From an uncultured Candidatus Saccharibacteria bacterium (GTDB taxonomy: Bacteria; Patescibacteriota; Doudnabacteria; UBA920): 64,000 nt of DNA. The notes beneath the pieces were generated by a model, which saw only the letters and a program-made list of their open reading frames with translations, made no database searches and was not told where the DNA came from. A program made the translations under genes and the position numbers. The stretch spans positions 117,365-181,364 of the forward strand of contig CAZHIA010000003.1 of NCBI GenBank assembly GCA_964532425.1. The letters run 5' to 3'. This document shows positions 3,093 to 60,688 of this stretch, piece after piece. The first letter of the stretch is position 1, and each line of letters starts with the position of its first letter.

Positions 3093-3195
3093 CACAAATT
3101 GACCCTGTACCACTCATCTGTCTTGGGTAGATTCGGATGCAGGACACAGCACGAATTACCCCGGACGCCTATCATCGGTAAAATGATAGATTGCT

Positions 3196-3221
3196 GTAGG
3201 GGCGGATACCATCCGCCCTCC
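3196..3221. repeat. REP-like palindromic unit (gtaggggcggataccatccgccctcc) immediately upstream of the RAYT gene.
   Basis: GTAGGG + inner palindrome GGCGGATACCATCCGCC. Same family as 11528-11558, 50480-50514 and others. Confidence 0.7.
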
Positions 3222-3234
3222 AGTGTTTTGAAAA

Positions 3235-3759
3235 ATGTCTAATTCTCGAAAACAAAATCGTCTTCATTGCTATGATTACTCTCAACCGGGGTTCTATTTT
3301 GTAACTGTGTGCACACAAGGTAGGATTTGCTGTTTAGGAGAGATCATAAATGGAAAAATGAATTTGAGTGAAAACGGAAAAATTGTTGAGGAGTGCTGGC
3401 TCGGCATTCCACTTCATTACGAGAATGTGAGCATTGATTCGGCGCATATTGTCATGCCCAATCACTTGCATGGAATAATCATAATAGAACCTGTAGGGGC
3501 GGTTACTAACCGCCCTAGGAACCGGGCGGATGATATCCGCCCCTACAATAACACCAATCTTTCTGCAGTGGTGGGTTCATTCAAAAAAGCAGCATCCAAG
3601 CTGATCCATGCTGAATATACAGCATTTGATTGGCAAAAGTCTTTTTATGACCACGTCATCCGCAAAGATGAATCACTCGATAAAATTCGCGAATATATTC
3701 GCAACAACCCATTAAAATGGGAATTGGACAGAAACAATCCTTCCAATATCTGGATGTAG
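3235..3759 (+). CDS. REP-associated tyrosine transposase (RAYT), IS200/IS605-like Y1 transposase.
   Basis: HuH motif HIVMPNHLHGII and Tyr motif DWQKSFYDHVIRKDE. A REP-like pair lies in frame between the two motifs. Confidence 0.8.
   Translation: MSNSRKQNRLHCYDYSQPGFYFVTVCTQGRICCLGEIINGKMNLSENGKIVEECWLGIPLHYENVSIDSAHIVMPNHLHGIIIIEPVGAVTNRPRNRADDIRPYNNTNLSAVVGSFKKAASKLIHAEYTAFDWQKSFYDHVIRKDESLDKIREYIRNNPLKWELDRNNPSNIWM
3491..3546. repeat. Two REP-like units lying in frame inside the RAYT coding sequence.
   Basis: ctgtaggggcggttactaaccgccctag and gggcggatgatatccgcccctac are translated as ...EPVGAVTNRPRNRADDIRPY... Confidence 0.7.
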
Positions 3760-3842
3760 CGCAGGCCCGTGGCCTGCTATTTTATTATTCTAAAACAAAA
3801 TTAAAAAATGGACACGCGAATCAAATTCGCGTGCCCTGTTGC

Positions 3843-4160
3843 TTACTTGGGTGCCACCGTGTAGACGATGGCCAGTTTGCCGAGCGGCCGGCTGCCGGCG
3901 CAAATGCGCTGCTTCGGCTGCTGGGGGCGCTCCGCCCAGAAAGTCCGCACGACCGTCACCTGATCGTCCATGATGGCCGAGGCGAAAAACTTTTCCTCGG
4001 TCATGTCAGGCGTCAACAAATGTTCATTCAGGTTAACTGCCACGGCTACAGCCAAATCGCGGAAACGTTCGTCGCCGTCATAGGCATTAATGACCATGAC
4101 TTTCTGGTCACCTTGCAACTGCGCGGCTTTTTCCACCAACGGGTCTACTCGTAACGACAT
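3843..4160 (-). CDS. Hypothetical protein (105 aa) co-transcribed downstream of the DHH phosphoesterase gene.
   Basis: SD AAGGAGGG 8 nt before the ATG; terminator hairpin cacgcgaat-caa-attcgcgtg plus a T-run downstream. Confidence 0.5.
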   Translation of the reverse strand: MSLRVDPLVEKAAQLQGDQKVMVINAYDGDERFRDLAVAVAVNLNEHLLTPDMTEEKFFASAIMDDQVTVVRTFWAERPQQPKQRICAGSRPLGKLAIVYTVAPK

Positions 4161-7172: not shown

Positions 7173-7335
7173 AACCTTATTGAACGGAAGATCCTTCGTT
7201 CGCCAGAGGCGAACTCAGGATGACTTTGAAAACTAACAGATGCCGTTTTATTAAGACTACCCGCAATAAAGACAGCATGGATCCCCGCATTCGCGGGGAT
7301 GACCCCCTATTGTTTAAAAATCTGCTCCCTTGGGA

Positions 7336-7361
7336 GCAGATTTTTAAACCTTATTTGAGGG
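7336..7361. terminator. Terminator hairpin atctgctccc-ttg-ggagcagat + TTTT. This is a second copy of the module at 7150; both are followed by taaaccttatt.
   Basis: Seen directly in the sequence. Confidence 0.65.
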
Positions 7362-8564: not shown

Positions 8565-8726
8565 ACTAATATTGTTATTATTTCCCTTCTATGATAATCA
8601 TCGAGTTTCGACCTTATTTACTACCGCTGAATGGACGCTGATTATTACGCTGATTCAACGCTAAAGCTAATCAGCCACCTTTCAACGGTACAAAAAAACT
8701 CGGTTTCCCGAGTACATCGTGCTCTT

Positions 8727-8753
8727 GTAGGGAACGGTCGAGACCGTTCCTAG
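8727..8753. repeat. REP-like unit gtagggaacggtcgagaccgttcctag in the rplJ upstream region.
   Basis: GTAGGG + palindrome AACGGTCGAGACCGTT; same family as 50480, 54771 and 59290. Confidence 0.65.
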
Positions 8754-8966
8754 ATGGGTTTAGATCCATCCCTACAAACACATGTCCTCGGTGGGCGCCT
8801 GCGCGATCTCGCAGTCATTAATCCGCCTCAGGCGGAACCAACTGTCATAGGAGTATTAACCCAGGCACTTATCTGCCTGGTGATTTTATTCGCCTCAACA
8901 CTTAAGTAATAAGTGCCGGGGTGAACTTGCTGAAATTATAGTAAATCCTGAGAAAAACGTCAAGTA

Positions 8967-15467: not shown

Positions 15468-15527
15468 AATCTTTGCATGGGGACCTTTGTAAATACAAAA
15501 TCACCAACCGACCGGTTGGTGATTTTG
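15468..15527. repeat. Uninterrupted copy of the 60-bp sequence (segments A+B) that is split by the tRNA-Gln gene at 17174-17366.
   Basis: atctttgcatggggacctttgtaaatacaaaa + tcaccaaccgaccggttggtgattttgt. It is 30/32 identical to 17174-17205 and 33/34 identical to 17333-17366. Confidence 0.75.
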
Positions 15528-15913
15528 TGGCTGGCCTTATGGGACGATGTTCGAACAGCTTTAACTTTAAAAATTACAGCGAAGTAACTGCAAGAATACA
15601 GTTAAGCCACGGTAATTAGTTGATTAGAGAGTCTTGCGAACTAACTTTGATTTCTGTTTCGATATTGTTTTCAGGGTTTGTGTTTTCACCAGACAAGAAG
15701 GTTATTCCAAGGTCAAGAAACTTTTGGATAACCTCTTTGCTAGGAAGACGCAATTTTGACCATTCAGAACAGTGTATTATCATTCTGAGCGGCTCTCCTA
15801 TGAGTTCGAAGGCTTTTGTTTCTTGCAGTTACTTCTTAATAATATTATACACCGATTTACATTTGTAATAAAAAATTACATGCTTAAACAAAAGGAATAT
15901 TAGCTTAGAATAT

Positions 15914-17258: not shown

Positions 17259-17333
17259 TGGGGTGTAGCCAAGCGGTAAGGCAAGCGGCTCTGAACCGCT
17301 CATTCCTAGGTTCGAATCCTAGCACCCCAGCCA
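17259..17333 (+). tRNA. tRNA-Gln (anticodon CUG), 75 nt, with an encoded CCA.
   Basis: Cloverleaf with a 7-bp acceptor stem UGGGGUG/CACCCCA and an anticodon loop CUCUGAA. It is near-identical in layout to E. coli tRNA-Gln (GCCAAGCGGUAAGGC D-arm, GGUUCGAAUCC T-arm). Confidence 0.9.
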
Positions 17334-17381
17334 CAAAATCACCAACCGATCGGTTGGTGATTTTGTATTTGCAAAGGTCCC
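17333..17381. repeat. Segment B copy (34-bp perfect palindrome acaaaatcaccaaccgatcggttggtgattttgt) followed by an inverted copy of the segment A core (atttgcaaaggtccc).
   Basis: Matches 15494-15527. It may act as the tRNA terminator hairpin. Confidence 0.75.
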
Positions 17382-34613: not shown

Positions 34614-34655
34614 ACACATTCCATTTTTGTCCGGTCGGACAAAAATGGAATGTGT
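34614..34655. promoter_or_regulatory. 42-bp near-perfect palindrome (20-bp arms) acacattccatttttgtccg-gt-cggacaaaaatggaatgtgt upstream of the FMN-binding protein gene.
   Basis: Seen in the sequence; no T-run follows, so it is not a canonical terminator. Confidence 0.55.
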
Positions 34656-42320: not shown

Positions 42321-42354
42321 ACGTTAATCGTTCGCGGCCGCGAACGATTAACGT
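42321..42354. promoter_or_regulatory. Perfect 34-bp palindrome acgttaatcgttcgcggccgcgaacgattaacgt.
   Basis: Seen in the sequence; lies in the promoter region of the lipoprotein gene. Confidence 0.5.
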
Positions 42355-45632: not shown

Positions 45633-46784
45633 TTAAGCTATGATTCCCCCGCCCACGCATATCTTGCCATCGTATAAGACCAAGCTCTGGCCGGACGCGA
45701 TAGACTTTTGGGGAGTTTTGAAATGAACCAGGTACGTACCGCCATCTTTTTGTTCGATCGTGAGCGGGACTAAATCACCCTGATGACGGAAGCGGCCTGC
45801 CAGCTGCCAGCTTTTAGCTTCTAGCTTATAGGCTATAGCTTCAGGCTGCGCAATCCAGTTCAAAGAATGTAAGGTAATATCCAGGACTTGCAGCGCTTTG
45901 TCGTCCGGGTCATTGGTCACGTACAGGGTGTTGTCATTCAGGTCCTTGCGCACGACAAAATACGGCCCGCTGGCACCAACCTTAATACCCTGACGTTGGC
46001 CAATGGTATAGTTATGAAGGCCTTCATGCTGACCGATGGCATTACCATGCTGGTCGATAATCGGCCCCGGCTTGGGTTTGAGCTTTTGTTCCAAAAAATC
46101 CTTCAGGCGAATCTTACCGACAAAGCACAGCCCCATGCTTTCCTGGCGACTTGCGTTCGGCAATCCGATCTTTGCCGCCAGCTTTTTCACTTCGGCTTTC
46201 TTCATCTCGCCAATCGGAAACAGCAGATGCGGTAACTGTTCGGGCTTGATGTTGTAAATGAAATAGGTCTGATCTTTGAATTCGTCAACGCTACGCTCAA
46301 GTTGAAAATGCAAAGTTAAAAATTCAAAATTACGTGGTGTGTTATCACTTTTAACTTTTAACTTTTCACTTTTCACTATCCTTGCATAATGCCCGGTCGC
46401 CAAATAGTCAAACCCATGCTCCATGGCCCAGTTATAGAGCAGCTTGAACTTGATCTCCTTATTGCACATGACATCCGGATTCGGCGTACGCCCGGCTTCG
46501 TACTCGCGAAAAAAATACTCCATCACCGTGTCCTGGTACTGCCTTTCGAAATCGAGCGTGTAGAGCGGAATCTTCAAAAACGCGGCTACGCGCAGCGCTT
46601 CCTGCCGGTCAGCCAGCCAAGGGCACTCACTCTTTAAAAGACCTTCGGTCAAAGACCAGTTTTTCATAAAAGCTGCTTCAACTTCGTATCCAGCCCGAAT
46701 GAGCAGGTATGCCGAAACAGCAGAATCAATTCCGCCGGAAAGGGCGACGAGCACCTTATTTTTTTGGCCGCTCTTGCGTTTCAT
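45633..46784 (-). CDS. mnmA: tRNA-specific 2-thiouridylase MnmA.
   Basis: PP-loop VLVALSGGIDSAV, ATGHYAR, and C-terminal GKICVGGGII. Contains an in-frame insert of about 16 aa that coincides with the heptamer-array element at 46301-46377. Confidence 0.9.
   Translation of the reverse strand: MKRKSGQKNKVLVALSGGIDSAVSAYLLIRAGYEVEAAFMKNWSLTEGLLKSECPWLADRQEALRVAAFLKIPLYTLDFERQYQDTVMEYFFREYEAGRTPNPDVMCNKEIKFKLLYNWAMEHGFDYLATGHYARIVKSEKLKVKSDNTPRNFEFLTLHFQLERSVDEFKDQTYFIYNIKPEQLPHLLFPIGEMKKAEVKKLAAKIGLPNASRQESMGLCFVGKIRLKDFLEQKLKPKPGPIIDQHGNAIGQHEGLHNYTIGQRQGIKVGASGPYFVVRKDLNDNTLYVTNDPDDKALQVLDITLHSLNWIAQPEAIAYKLEAKSWQLAGRFRHQGDLVPLTIEQKDGGTYLVHFKTPQKSIASGQSLVLYDGKICVGGGIIA
46301..46377. repeat. 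Inverted heptamer-array element lying in frame inside mnmA (gttgaaa atgcaaa gttaaaa attcaaa ... actttta actttta acttttc acttttc).
   Basis: 4x perfect/near-perfect 7-mers. Encodes the extra segment ...KSEKLKVKSDNTPRNFEFLTLHFQ... which is absent from E. coli MnmA at this position. Confidence 0.65.
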
Positions 46785-50479: not shown

Positions 50480-50514
50480 CCCCGTAGGGGACGGTCGCGA
50501 CCGTCCCCTACAAG
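50480..50514. repeat. REP-like unit cccgtaggggacggtcgcgaccgtcccctacaagg.
   Basis: GTAGGG-GACGGTCGCGACCGTC-CCCTAC. Confidence 0.75.
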
Positions 50515-54744: not shown

Positions 54745-54770
54745 AGTACGATTGGCTTGGTACGGGCCGG

Positions 54771-54799
54771 TCGCGACCGGCCCCTACGACACTAAATTT
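54771..54799. repeat. REP-like unit gtacgggccggtcgcgaccggcccctacg.
   Basis: Same family as 50480-50514. Confidence 0.7.
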
Positions 54800-58572: not shown

Positions 58573-59778
58573 TTATTGCGTCCCCCTGCCTACCGCTTCG
58601 CTGATATTCTTATATCCGTCTTGCTCGAGTAATCTGACCAGTCCGCGATTGATATCACTGATCGCTTCGGGACCTTCGAAGATCATGCCGGTGATCAACT
58701 GAATCAGACTCGCGCCGAGCTTGATCTTTCTATAGGCATCCTCAGCCGTAAACACGCCGCCGCACCCGATGATCACGAATTCTCCGCGCGTCTTTTGATA
58801 CAGATAGGCAATTTGCCGGTCAGACAACGCCTGTACTACCTTGCCCGACATGCTGCCACTTTGAGGCAAATCGGATTCCTTAATGTTCGGGTTAGACCGG
58901 TCTTTGGCCAGATTGGTACTGATAAACCCCGTGATTTTATGCTTGCGCGCAACTTCGATCATGCCATCCAAAACTTGTTCAGGCATCTCGGCCGGCATTT
59001 TGATGAAGACTGGTTTTTGGTTCGGTACCTGGCGTAAAGCTGTCATAAGGCGGTCGAACTTCTCCGGGGTAGTGAACGGCTCGCCGCCAAAGGCATTCGG
59101 ACAGGAAATATTGACCGTAAAATAATCGCCGGTGTTCGCATCCACGAAGGTCTTGTACGCCTTCACGTAATCCGCAATACCAGCTTGTTCCTCGACCGTG
59201 TCGGCACTGTTAGTCTTGGCAATAGATATCCCGATCGGTATTCGACTGACGGTGTAAGGACGGGCCTGCGCCTTACCGGCGGGCAGGTCGACCCGTTCAG
59301 AAGCGGAACGGTCTCGACCGTTCCCTACAGACTGTAGTCTCTTCACGATTGCTTTACATCCGTCATTTTTAAGTCCGTAATACACGACCAGGCTCCCCGA
59401 CCGCTTCAACCGCCACAGTCGCGGCTTGGGATTGCCCGCACACGGGTTGCCAGTAACCGAGCCAATCTCTTCAAATCCAAATCCCACTTCGGGCAGGATC
59501 TGCGTCAAATGCGCGTCCTTGTCAAATCCGGCCGCAAGGCCTATGGGATTTTCAAAACGGATGCCGGCAACGGTTTGGGCCAACATAGGACTATCATAAC
59601 CGAACATGACTCTCGTCAATCCGCGGGTTGCTGCCGTTTTGCCGAGCATGGAGCCGACGAATGTCATACGGTCATGCACCGCTTCCGGATCGGCAAGAAA
59701 AAACAACGGCTTCAGCACGCCTTTATACGCAACCCGGATAACTGCATTGCGCGCAATAATAAGAGAATCTTTAAGCAT
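58573..59778 (-). CDS. pyrD: Dihydroorotate dehydrogenase (quinone), class 2.
   Basis: N-terminal membrane-association helix; GNPKPRLWRL, IGSVT and GGV blocks; contains an in-frame REP-like insert. Confidence 0.85.
   Translation of the reverse strand: MLKDSLIIARNAVIRVAYKGVLKPLFFLADPEAVHDRMTFVGSMLGKTAATRGLTRVMFGYDSPMLAQTVAGIRFENPIGLAAGFDKDAHLTQILPEVGFGFEEIGSVTGNPCAGNPKPRLWRLKRSGSLVVYYGLKNDGCKAIVKRLQSVGNGRDRSASERVDLPAGKAQARPYTVSRIPIGISIAKTNSADTVEEQAGIADYVKAYKTFVDANTGDYFTVNISCPNAFGGEPFTTPEKFDRLMTALRQVPNQKPVFIKMPAEMPEQVLDGMIEVARKHKITGFISTNLAKDRSNPNIKESDLPQSGSMSGKVVQALSDRQIAYLYQKTRGEFVIIGCGGVFTAEDAYRKIKLGASLIQLITGMIFEGPEAISDINRGLVRLLEQDGYKNISEAVGRGTQ
59290..59330. repeat. REP-like unit (ggaacggtctcgaccgttccctacag) lying in frame inside pyrD.
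   Basis: Translated on the minus strand as ...QSVGNGRDRSASERVDLP... Confidence 0.65.
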
Positions 59779-60688
59779 TGGCTCGTTTGGATTTAATAAA
59801 GAAGAAAGCGACGATAACGAATGTGATGACCGGAGAAGTCCACTCCGGTATTTCGGCACCGAAACTGTCGGCGAGCATAATAAGACCGAGCGCGAGAATG
59901 GAATACATGGCCCCGTTCTTCAAAAATATGTACTGTTTGATGCGGTCGACATTATGCACGGTCAGCTGCCGGACCACGAGCGCCCCCAGGCTGTTCCCCA
60001 CCAAAATGAGTGGTACCGACAATGTAAAAGCAAACGCGCCGAGCACGCCATCAACAGAAAAGGTCGTGTCAATTATTTCAAGATACAAGATTTTGCTCAA
60101 ATCAGACAAACTACCGCTTTTGTCACGCAGCAAGGTCTCTTCGCTCTTGGCAGCGTTCTCTTTAAAACCGTGGGTAATAAAAAATGCGGTCGAGCCGGCT
60201 ACGGCTGCCAGGGCCATGTACGGATTCACGGCAAGCGCCTTCCAGACAATGCCGAGCAACAGGACAGAGATGACCGCAAAAAACCACACGCCTTGCCGTG
60301 CGATAAAACGTTCGCCTGGCAAGCCAAATTCCTTTTCTTCCAAAAATAACCAGTGAAAAAACAGAAAGATCAAAAAGACTCCGCCGGCCAGCAGAAGCAG
60401 CGGGGCCGAACGGTGCACCGCCTCCAGTACTTTCGGGTCGGAACTGAAGGTGGCGGTCAGTGCCCCAATAGGACCGAGAGACGGCGTTGCCAGCCAGACA
60501 ATGAGCCACGGCAGCAGACCTCTGACCACGAACACGGCAAACAGCATTCCCCACAGCAAAAACCACTTGCGGGCTTTCTGGCCCATGCCGGACAGGACTT
60601 CCGCGTTAATGATCGCGTTATCGATGCTGGACACCGTTTCAAACAGGCAAAGCCCGGCAACGGTAATGGCAATGGTAATGAAAGACAT
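59771..60688 (-). CDS. TerC-family / DUF475 integral membrane protein.
   Basis: ETVSSIDNAII and DTTFSVDGVLGAFA blocks; multiple TM helices. Confidence 0.7.
   Translation of the reverse strand: MSFITIAITVAGLCLFETVSSIDNAIINAEVLSGMGQKARKWFLLWGMLFAVFVVRGLLPWLIVWLATPSLGPIGALTATFSSDPKVLEAVHRSAPLLLLAGGVFLIFLFFHWLFLEEKEFGLPGERFIARQGVWFFAVISVLLLGIVWKALAVNPYMALAAVAGSTAFFITHGFKENAAKSEETLLRDKSGSLSDLSKILYLEIIDTTFSVDGVLGAFAFTLSVPLILVGNSLGALVVRQLTVHNVDRIKQYIFLKNGAMYSILALGLIMLADSFGAEIPEWTSPVITFVIVAFFFIKSKRANA

What the first reader, a model, noticed from the sequence alone, without database searches (positions are those of the whole stretch)
59290..59330. REP-like palindrome embedded in frame within pyrD
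Seen in the sequence: ggaacggtctcgaccgttccctacag (same REP subtype as 8727, 50480 and 54771) lies inside the class-2 dihydroorotate dehydrogenase ORF and is translated as ...VKRLQSVGNGRDRSASERVDLPAGKA... With the RAYT and mnmA cases, this is the third example in the window of a repeat element tolerated inside a coding sequence. Inference: in-frame or loop-targeted insertions of small palindromic elements are a recurring feature of this genome.
Basis: partly seen in the sequence, partly recalled or inferred. Interest (0 to 1): 0.5.

Follow-up and report, generated by a model that had tools for sequence, protein, structure and literature searches.

The report
REP hairpin repeat inserted inside pyrD

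Summary
GGAACGGTCTCGACCGTTCC (59305-59324) lies inside pyrD (58573-59781, minus strand). On the coding strand it reads TGTAGGGAACGGTCGAGACCGTTCC, 25 nt identical to the intergenic REP at 8727, including the GTAG head typical of REPs. Variants at 50484 and 54760 keep the stem through compensatory changes.

The insertion is 25 aa (75 nt, 59254-59328), not about 12. Between G141 and P182, 109 of 120 homologs have 15 residues and this protein has 40. The extra 75 nt run from GTAGGG to CCTTAC. AlphaFold gives pLDDT below 50 only for residues 154-178, between a helix and a barrel strand. All 121 sequences keep the core motifs.

Only the first 25-27 nt are demonstrably REP. The other 50 nt are GC-rich and may be a decayed inverted partner, but that is not significant.

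This loop is the main insertion site in the family (11 of 14 insertions of 4 aa or more). The same REP, in the same frame (SVGNGRDRS), sits in purA of another Doudnabacteria genome.

Intragenic GTAG REPs and Rickettsia RPEs are published (PMC3733652). This is a new member of a known kind, most likely a tolerated selfish insertion.

The parts
58573..59781 (-). pyrD coding sequence (402 codons including the stop; class-2-type dihydroorotate dehydrogenase), intact and carrying the insertion
   Evidence: Pfam DHO_dh 1.4e-60. NCBIfam NF003652 scores 319 bits against a cut-off of 267, and TIGR01036 scores 250 against 200. An identical protein, P0001, is also present in an independent Logan assembly. 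AF2 gives mean pLDDT 85.8.
59254..59328 (-). 75-nt (25-codon) lineage-specific insertion V152..Y176: GTAGGGAACGGTCGAGACCGTTCCGCTTCTGAACGGGTCGACCTGCCCGCCGGTAAGGCGCAGGCCCGTCCTTAC
   Evidence: The loop G141..P182 is 40 aa here and 15 aa in 109 of 120 homologs (alignment A1). The PDB alignment breaks at residues 149/180. AF2 pLDDT below 50 covers exactly residues 154-178. GC is 66.7% against 51.6% for the rest of the gene. The termini GUAGGGA and UCCUUAC pair in the fold, with z = -2.0.
59305..59329 (-). Intact GTAG-type REP unit: TGTAG head plus the palindrome GGAACGGTCGAGACCGTTCC (9-bp stem)
   Evidence: 25 nt are identical to the intergenic copy at 8726-8750, and 27 nt are identical to the purA copy in L050. 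None is expected in shuffles.
59254..59304 (-). Remaining 51 nt of the insert: GC-rich, with REP-like fragments (GAACGGGTCGACC; GCCCGTCCTTAC). Possibly a decayed inverted REP partner, that is, a REPIN remnant.
   Evidence: GC is 68%, and only 1.8% of 50-nt windows in the rest of pyrD are as high. Similarity to the REP consensus is not significant (P about 0.11). There is no other copy in the sequence held.
8727..8775 (+). Intergenic REP of the same subtype (GTAGGGAACGGTCGAGACCGTTCC...CCCTAC), upstream of rplJ
50484..50511 (+). Intergenic REP variant GTAGGGGACGGTCGCGACCGTCCCCTAC (a full palindrome with GTAG/CTAC on both ends)
54760..54787 (+). Intergenic REP variant GTACGGGCCGGTCGCGACCGGCCCCTAC, between the PEP carboxylase gene and the HD-domain gene. 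The stem differs from the pyrD copy by compensatory pairs.
3235..3759 (+). RAYT-like Y1 (HUH) transposase gene, the candidate mobilising enzyme for GTAG REPs in this genome. It is preceded by a type-A REP (3196-3218) and has an inverted type-A REP doublet (3493-3546) in its own reading frame.
   Evidence: Pfam Y1_Tnp 9.9e-5. NCBIfam REP_Tyr_transpos scores 47.6 bits, rising to 62.9 after the doublet-coded residues are removed; the cut-off is 80. Sequence; REP positions.

Best explanation
A GTAG-type REP element became inserted in frame into pyrD. It was most likely a REP pair (REPIN-like, GTAG ends outward) whose right-hand partner has since decayed. The 75 nt lie in the loop between helix 142-153 and barrel strand 183-188. 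They add exactly 25 codons and contain no stop codon in the frame used. They encode a hydrophilic, disordered peptide (VGNGRDRSASERVDLPAGKAQARPY). In a TIM barrel a helix-to-strand loop lies on the face opposite the catalytic side, so the enzyme probably stays functional and the insertion persists as a tolerated, essentially neutral piece of selfish DNA. Three things are shown: the REP identity of the first 25-27 nt, the size and position of the insertion, and the disordered loop context with conserved catalytic motifs. Three things are inferred: mobilisation by a RAYT-type Y1 transposase through a single-strand hairpin intermediate without target duplication, the REP origin of the remaining 50 nt, and the retained enzyme activity. 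Insertions accumulate at this site because it is the one permissive loop of the protein. That is a selection filter, and site-specific targeting does not need to be assumed.
For: The coding strand is identical over 25 nt, including the GTAG head, to the intergenic REP at 8727; none is expected in shuffles. Family variants keep the stem through compensatory pairs (GGAACGG, GGGACGG, GGGCCGG). Across 133 copies from many phyla the core is preceded by YGTA[G/C]. In other genomes it forms head-out dimers of 73-112 nt, GTAGGG..REP..spacer..REP..CCCTAC, the same layout and size as the 75-nt insert. The loop is 40 aa here against 15 aa in 109 of 120 homologs, and the excess equals the distance from GTAGGG to CCTTAC. 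The only low-confidence segment in the AF2 model is 154-178, between a helix and a strand. The motifs NISCPN, K189 and N191 are kept as in all 121 sequences. GRAVY of the insert is -1.09. No terminator-like site is present. Eleven of 14 internal insertions of 4 aa or more in the family are at this loop, and several of them are hairpins. The same REP in the same frame is in purA of L050, and 80-82% identical homologs lack it. A RAYT-like gene is in the window. An independent assembly has the same sequence. Intragenic GTAG REPs, mostly dimers encoding 20-30 aa, are documented (PMC3733652).
Against: The right-hand 50 nt are not significantly similar to the REP consensus (P about 0.11) and have no second copy in the 64 kb or the fetched loci. 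The 'decayed REPIN' reading therefore rests on GC content, terminal complementarity (z = -2.0, 7 of 200 shuffles as good) and the length match. The window's RAYT is flanked by type-A REPs (GGGCGG stem), not the type-B REP found in pyrD, and it scores below NCBIfam's equivalog cut-off. No closely related genome (nearest PyrD is 69-72% identical) is available to show an empty site. Enzyme activity and expression are untested.
Confidence: 0.8

Rival explanations
1. Only a single REP unit of about 27-33 nt inserted, into a loop that had already been lengthened in this lineage by about 15 residues of unrelated origin. On this reading the 75 nt are two events rather than one REPIN.
For: The right-hand 50 nt show no significant REP similarity and no other copy. 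The purA insertion of the same REP is a singleton of only about 11 aa. Other PyrD homologs carry non-REP extensions of 4-14 aa at this loop.
Against: The excess over the canonical loop is exactly the GTAGGG..CCTTAC span. The remainder is as GC-rich as the REP itself, 68% against 51.6% for the gene. The ends pair with each other. Head-out dimers of 73-112 nt are the usual form of this REP type elsewhere.
Confidence: 0.15
2. The embedded hairpin has been kept because it does something. It could be an intragenic DNA or RNA structure, for example an mRNA stability or translation-pausing element or a RAYT binding site, or the added peptide could have a function.
For: At the orthologous purA site two genomes carry REPs whose stems differ by a compensatory A/T swap, GGGAACGG..CCGTTCCC against GGGTACGG..CCGTACCC. 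The REP unit in pyrD is still a perfect palindrome, while the rest of the insert looks decayed.
Against: The compensatory difference may only reflect each genome's own master REP copy. A third purA homolog has a decayed version and most have none. The peptide is predicted to be disordered and is not conserved. No terminator or promoter signal is present. Published surveys find intragenic REPs in unrelated proteins and argue against functional constraint (PMC3733652).
Confidence: 0.07
3. The insertion has inactivated pyrD, leaving a young pseudogene that is still an open frame, or the segment is an assembly artefact at a repeat.
For: Patescibacteria often lack complete nucleotide biosynthesis, and repeats can mis-join contigs.
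Against: The frame is open on both sides, within the same gene. All 48+ invariant family positions are kept. The AF2 fold is confident outside the insert. The 75 nt are identical in an independent Logan assembly. Neighbouring genes are the same in both assemblies.
Confidence: 0.05

Closest known systems
Intragenic GTAG-tagged REPs (Di Nocera, De Gregorio and Rocco 2013, BMC Genomics 14:522; PMC3733652)
   Same: Both are short GTAG-headed palindromes that are mostly intergenic but sometimes lie wholly inside ORFs of known proteins, in frame. More than half of the published inserts are dimers or groups encoding 20-30 aa, and the authors suggest they sit in flexible loops. Our insert is 25 aa, and its host gene is otherwise intact.
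   Different: The host here is a Patescibacteria (Doudnabacteria-like) genome, a group not covered in that survey. The target is pyrD; the paper emphasises replication and repair genes. The right-hand partner here is unrecognisably decayed.
Rickettsia palindromic elements (RPE; Ogata et al. 2000, as cited in PMC3733652)
   Same: Both are selfish palindromic repeats inserted in frame into housekeeping genes. They add surface peptide segments without destroying the protein, and they recur in many genes of one lineage.
   Different: RPE-1 elements are longer (about 100-150 nt) and belong to other sequence families. RPE-4 and RPE-6 are CGTC-type, not GTAG-type, and have no RAYT association.
REPIN-RAYT systems (Bertels and Rainey 2011, PMC3116915; Nunvar et al.)
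   Same: Both show a GTAG head, a hairpin, an inverted doublet architecture with GTAG outward, and a single-copy Y1 HUH transposase gene flanked by REPs. The same core forms 73-112-nt doublets in other genomes.
   Different: Classical REPINs are extragenic. Here the doublet nature of the pyrD insert is not proven. The RAYT in the window is flanked by a different REP subtype and falls below the curated family cut-off.
IS200/IS605 'peel-and-paste' single-strand transposition
   Same: It is the likely mechanistic relative: a Y1 HUH enzyme, hairpin recognition, seamless insertion and excision without target duplication. That would fit the clean in-frame junction and the patchy presence or absence at the purA site.
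   Different: No transposase lies inside the element. The mechanism is inferred and was not tested here.

Membership tests
GTAG-type REP | Short (20-40 nt) palindrome able to form a stem-loop | tested here: met
   GGAACGGTCGAGACCGTTCC has a perfect 8-9 bp stem.
GTAG-type REP | Conserved GTAG tetranucleotide at one end | tested here: met
   The coding strand reads TCTGTAGGGAACGG. All 10 REP units or strands in the window start YGTA[G/C]GG. The same head is conserved in 133 copies from many phyla.
GTAG-type REP | Repeated in the genome, predominantly extragenic | tested here: met
   There are four type-B and four type-A units in 64 kb. Five units are intergenic and three are intragenic at two loci. 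The whole-genome count was not available.
GTAG-type REP | Associated RAYT (Y1 HUH transposase) gene flanked by the REPs | tested here: inconclusive
   A RAYT-like gene lies at 3235-3759 (Pfam Y1_Tnp 22.9 bits against 23; NCBIfam REP_Tyr_transpos 47.6-62.9 bits against 80). It is flanked by and carries type-A REPs, not the type-B REP of pyrD.
REPIN (inverted REP doublet) | Two REPs in inverted orientation separated by a short spacer, folding into one long hairpin | tested here: inconclusive
   The left REP is intact. The right end, GCCCGTCCTTAC, only resembles GACCGTTCCCTAC, and overall similarity has P about 0.11. The terminal pairing gives z = -2.0. Clean doublets of the same core exist elsewhere.
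Intragenic REP / RPE-like in-frame insertion | Length is a multiple of three, there is no stop in the host frame, and the host ORF is intact on both sides | tested here: met
   The insert is 75 nt and the ORF has 402 codons.
Intragenic REP / RPE-like in-frame insertion | Orthologs lack the segment (lineage-specific) | tested here: met
   109 of 120 homologs have the 15-aa loop and none shares the 25 aa.
Intragenic REP / RPE-like in-frame insertion | Located in a surface loop, away from the catalytic site | tested here: met
   AF2 pLDDT below 50 covers 154-178, between helix 142-153 and strand 183-188, which is a helix-to-strand loop. Rat and human DHODH have their own extension there. Distance to the active site was not measured.
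Intragenic REP / RPE-like in-frame insertion | The decorated protein is expressed and active | not testable with these tools
   This needs proteomics or complementation.
Class 2 (quinone-dependent) dihydroorotate dehydrogenase | Family-level sequence membership and an N-terminal helical extension | tested here: met
   NF003652 scores 319 bits against 267 and TIGR01036 scores 250 against 200. Helices 2-29, 32-46 and 50-60 precede the barrel. The best PDB hits are class 2 enzymes.
Class 2 (quinone-dependent) dihydroorotate dehydrogenase | Serine as catalytic base (N-x-S-S-P-N). This criterion is from my own knowledge of the family. | tested here: not met
   The motif is NISCPN. Cys227 aligns with the Ser of rat and mycobacterial enzymes and is Cys in 121 of 121 sequences of this clade.

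The most novel reading that the evidence does not exclude
In Patescibacteria, GTAG REPs may be repeatedly gained, exchanged or kept at particular intragenic sites, rather than being merely tolerated in genes. Two sites suggest this: the helix-to-strand loop of PyrD, and one site of PurA where two genomes carry stems that differ by a compensatory change. This would imply either site-specific integration into coding DNA by the Y1 transposase or selection for the hairpin itself inside the coding sequence.
Probability: 0.1. Interest if true: 0.6.

Novelty: new member of a known kind. Interest (0 to 1): 0.33.

Why it matters
The finding documents that REP/RAYT-type selfish repeats are active in small Patescibacteria genomes and can lengthen loops of core metabolic enzymes without breaking them. 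This has three uses. For annotation, such inserts can look like frameshifts, assembly errors or novel domains. For protein engineering, it points to a naturally permissive loop in DHODH. It also adds to the picture of how repeats create protein length variation. It does not change what is known about REPs, because in-frame intragenic REPs and RPEs are established.

Tried and rejected
- **Chance resemblance.** Rejected: none is expected in shuffles, and 25-27 nt are identical to other copies.
- **Intrinsic terminator or promoter inside pyrD.** No terminator-like site was found, and promoter-like hits are at background level.
- **Assembly artefact.** The same 75 nt are in an independent Logan contig.
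- **REP origin of the right-hand 50 nt.** Tests by Smith-Waterman against REP consensi and by blastn-short against the window and 129 loci were not significant and found no second copy.
- **PDB sequence search for the RAYT.** It gave only spurious hits.
- **mnmA as a third example.** mnmA was located at 45633-46784, but no GTAG REP or strong hairpin was found there.
- **purA in the window.** None was found for a direct comparison.
- **Search for an empty-site allele.** Not attempted, because the nearest PyrD in 5.8 billion proteins is only 69-72% identical.

Full report
**What is at the coordinates.** The window is 50.5% G+C. The ORF 58573-59781 on the minus strand encodes a 401-residue dihydroorotate dehydrogenase. 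Pfam DHO_dh scores 1.4e-60. NCBIfam quinone-dependent PyrD models NF003652 and TIGR01036 are above their curated cut-offs. The best solved relatives are class 2 enzymes. The palindrome GGAACGGTCTCGACCGTTCC is at 59305-59324. Its reverse complement is at 8731-8750 and a close variant is at 50488-50507, with none expected in 100 shuffles. A perfect-hairpin scan adds GGGCCGGTCGCGACCGGCCC at 54764-54783.

**It is a GTAG-type REP.** On the pyrD coding strand the element reads TCTGTAGGGAACGGTCGAGACCGTTCC. Twenty-five of these bases, including the GTAG head, are identical to the intergenic copy at 8727.

- Every REP unit in the window begins YGTA[G/C]GG.
- There are two subtypes. Type A has stem GGGCGG and lies at 3196, 3493/3546 and 11532. 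Type B has stem GG(A/G)(A/C)CGG and lies at 8727, 50484, 54760 and in pyrD.
- Type-B variants differ by paired changes that keep the stem: GGAACGG..CCGTTCC, GGGACGG..CCGTCCC and GGGCCGG..CCGGCCC.
- A scan of one genome per species found the core in more than 120 loci from many phyla. Across 133 copies the flanks show a conserved YGTA[G/C] head.
- In several genomes two inverted copies form head-out doublets of 73-112 nt: GTAGGG-REP-spacer-REP-CCCTAC.
- A RAYT-like Y1 transposase gene lies at 3235-3759. Pfam Y1_Tnp scores 22.9 bits. NCBIfam REP_Tyr_transpos scores 47.6 bits, and 62.9 bits when 19 REP-coded residues are deleted. Both are below the equivalog cut-off of 80.
- That gene is preceded by a type-A REP and carries a type-A doublet in its own frame, between the HUH and Tyr motifs.

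**Size and boundaries of the insertion.** The 120 best homologs are Patescibacteria and Doudnabacteria, at most 72% identical. Between the invariant G141 and P182, 109 of them have 15 residues and the window protein has 40. The excess of 25 codons equals the distance from the G of GTAGGG (V152, position 59328) to the C of CCTTAC (Y176, position 59254). Removing exactly that span restores the canonical loop length. The gap placement in a protein alignment is not base-precise, so this is a consistency argument and not proof of the junctions. The phmmer alignment to a mycobacterial DHODH breaks at 149/180, and rat and human enzymes have their own extension of about 12 residues here.

**Structure context.** An AlphaFold2 model built from alignment A1 has mean pLDDT 85.8. 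Its only segment below 50 is residues 154-178, lying between helix 142-153 and strand 183-188. In a (beta/alpha)8 barrel a helix-to-strand loop is on the face opposite the catalytic face; this is established knowledge, and I did not measure distances. The insert is hydrophilic, with GRAVY -1.09 against -0.16 for the protein. NISCPN, K189 and N191 are conserved as in all 121 sequences.

**What the other 50 nt are.** They are 68% G+C against 51.6% for the rest of pyrD, and only 1.8% of 50-nt windows in the gene are as high. They contain REP-like fragments. The 75 nt fold with GUAGGGA pairing to UCCUUAC, at -34.3 kcal/mol, z = -2.0, with 7 of 200 shuffles as good. However, similarity to REP consensi is not significant (P about 0.11), and no second copy exists in the sequence I hold. 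I therefore call it a probable decayed REPIN partner, with a single REP in a previously lengthened loop as the main rival.

**Recurrence.** Within the PyrD family, internal insertions of 4 aa or more occur almost only at this loop: 11 sequences, against 3 sequences at two other sites, and those 3 are all only 4 aa. Three of the other inserts are hairpins of different sequence:

| Locus | Hairpin |
|---|---|
| L126 | CCGAAGGGTAATCACCCTTCGG |
| L124 | GACGGGGTACCCCCGTC |
| L122 | CCAAAGCTTTGCTTTGG |

- In Candidatus Doudnabacteria MAG_CO250 (L050) the identical REP lies in frame in purA. It is translated in the same frame (IVSVGNGRDRSLQG).
- PurA homologs that are 80-82% identical have the short site LISGSIP.
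- Another homolog (L127) carries GTAGGGTACGGTCGCGACCGTACCCTAC at the same site, with a compensatory A/T swap. A third (L128) carries a decayed version. L129 shows the empty site.
- A crude NJ tree places the insert-bearing PurA sequences in two separate groups. This requires several gains or precise losses.
- A further copy is in frame, in the other open frame (RERSRPFP), in a 451-aa membrane-protein ORF of L040.
- Overall, 16 of 138 scanned copies lie at least 60 codons inside an open frame. This is a rough proxy, not an annotation.

**Mechanism.** The most likely history is RAYT-type single-strand transposition of a REP or REPIN. That process is seamless, so it leaves no target duplication. 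Selection then retains only events that are a multiple of three, free of stop codons and located in a permissive loop. In this REP two of the three frames on each strand are open; the third contains the TAG of GTAG. There is no terminator-like signal at the site. The transposition step and the retained enzyme activity are inferred.

**Comparison with what is known.** Di Nocera et al. 2013 (PMC3733652) describe GTAG and CGTC REPs located entirely within ORFs in several species. More than half of those are dimers or groups encoding 20-30 aa, and the authors equate the Rickettsia cases with the RPE elements. The present case fits that description closely. I found no paper in the held library on REPs or RAYTs in the Candidate Phyla Radiation. 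The host lineage and the pyrD and purA targets are therefore new instances, but the kind is not new.

**Verdict.** It is a new member of a known kind and of modest interest.

Noticed in passing
window 3235-3759 (REP doublet at 3493-3546; upstream REP at 3196-3218): The RAYT-like transposase gene carries an inverted doublet of type-A GTAG REPs inside its own reading frame, translated EPVGAVTNRPRNRADDIRPY, between the HUH motif (PNHLHGII) and the Tyr motif. Deleting these residues raises the NCBIfam REP_Tyr_transpos score from 47.6 to 62.9 bits.
   Followed up: partly
window 58573-59781, residue C227 (motif NISCPN): This PyrD passes the curated cut-offs of quinone-dependent (class 2) models and has the N-terminal helical extension. 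However, the catalytic-base position holds Cys, as in class 1 enzymes, not Ser, and this is so in all 121 sequences of the Patescibacteria clade. It is odd for organisms generally thought to lack quinones.
   Followed up: partly
L050 3199-4740 (-), REP at 4071-4098; L127, L128, L129: purA of another Doudnabacteria MAG has the identical REP in frame (SVGNGRDRS). At the same site L127 has a variant with a compensatory stem change, L128 has a decayed copy, and L129 has the empty site. The distribution on a crude tree is patchy.
   Followed up: partly
L128 4462-4818: A Y1_Tnp (IS200/RAYT-like) gene lies directly upstream of the purA that carries the decayed REP-like insert.
   Followed up: no
L040 2664-4019 (-), REP at 3161-3180: A 451-aa multi-pass membrane ORF that looks like an O-antigen ligase, in a Patescibacteria MAG, carries the same REP core in the other open frame (LIRRERSRPFPCPASGG).
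   Followed up: no
L126 1781-1802; L124 594-610; L122 3449-3465: Other PyrD homologs have their own unrelated hairpin-forming insertions at the same helix-to-strand loop, for example the 9-bp-stem palindrome CCGAAGGGTAATCACCCTTCGG. No second copies were seen in their short contigs.
   Followed up: partly
window 45633-46784 (-): This is mnmA. The Pfam HUP domain covers 215 residues against 202 profile positions, so a small insert (around KSEKLKVKSDNTPRNFEFLTLHFQL) may exist.
   Followed up: partly
window 3759-3770 and 59262-59273: A 12-nt exact match, GCGCAGGCCCGT, links the hairpin just after the RAYT stop codon to the right-hand part of the pyrD insert. It is at chance level by E-value (1.7).
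   Followed up: no
window 15495-15528 and 17333-17366; 7312-7349; 34614-34655; 42321-42354: Several long perfect palindromes (16-20 bp stems) of other sequence families occur in the window, including a near-identical pair about 1.8 kb apart (ACAAAATCACCAACCGA(C/T)CGGTTGGTGATTTTGT).
   Followed up: no
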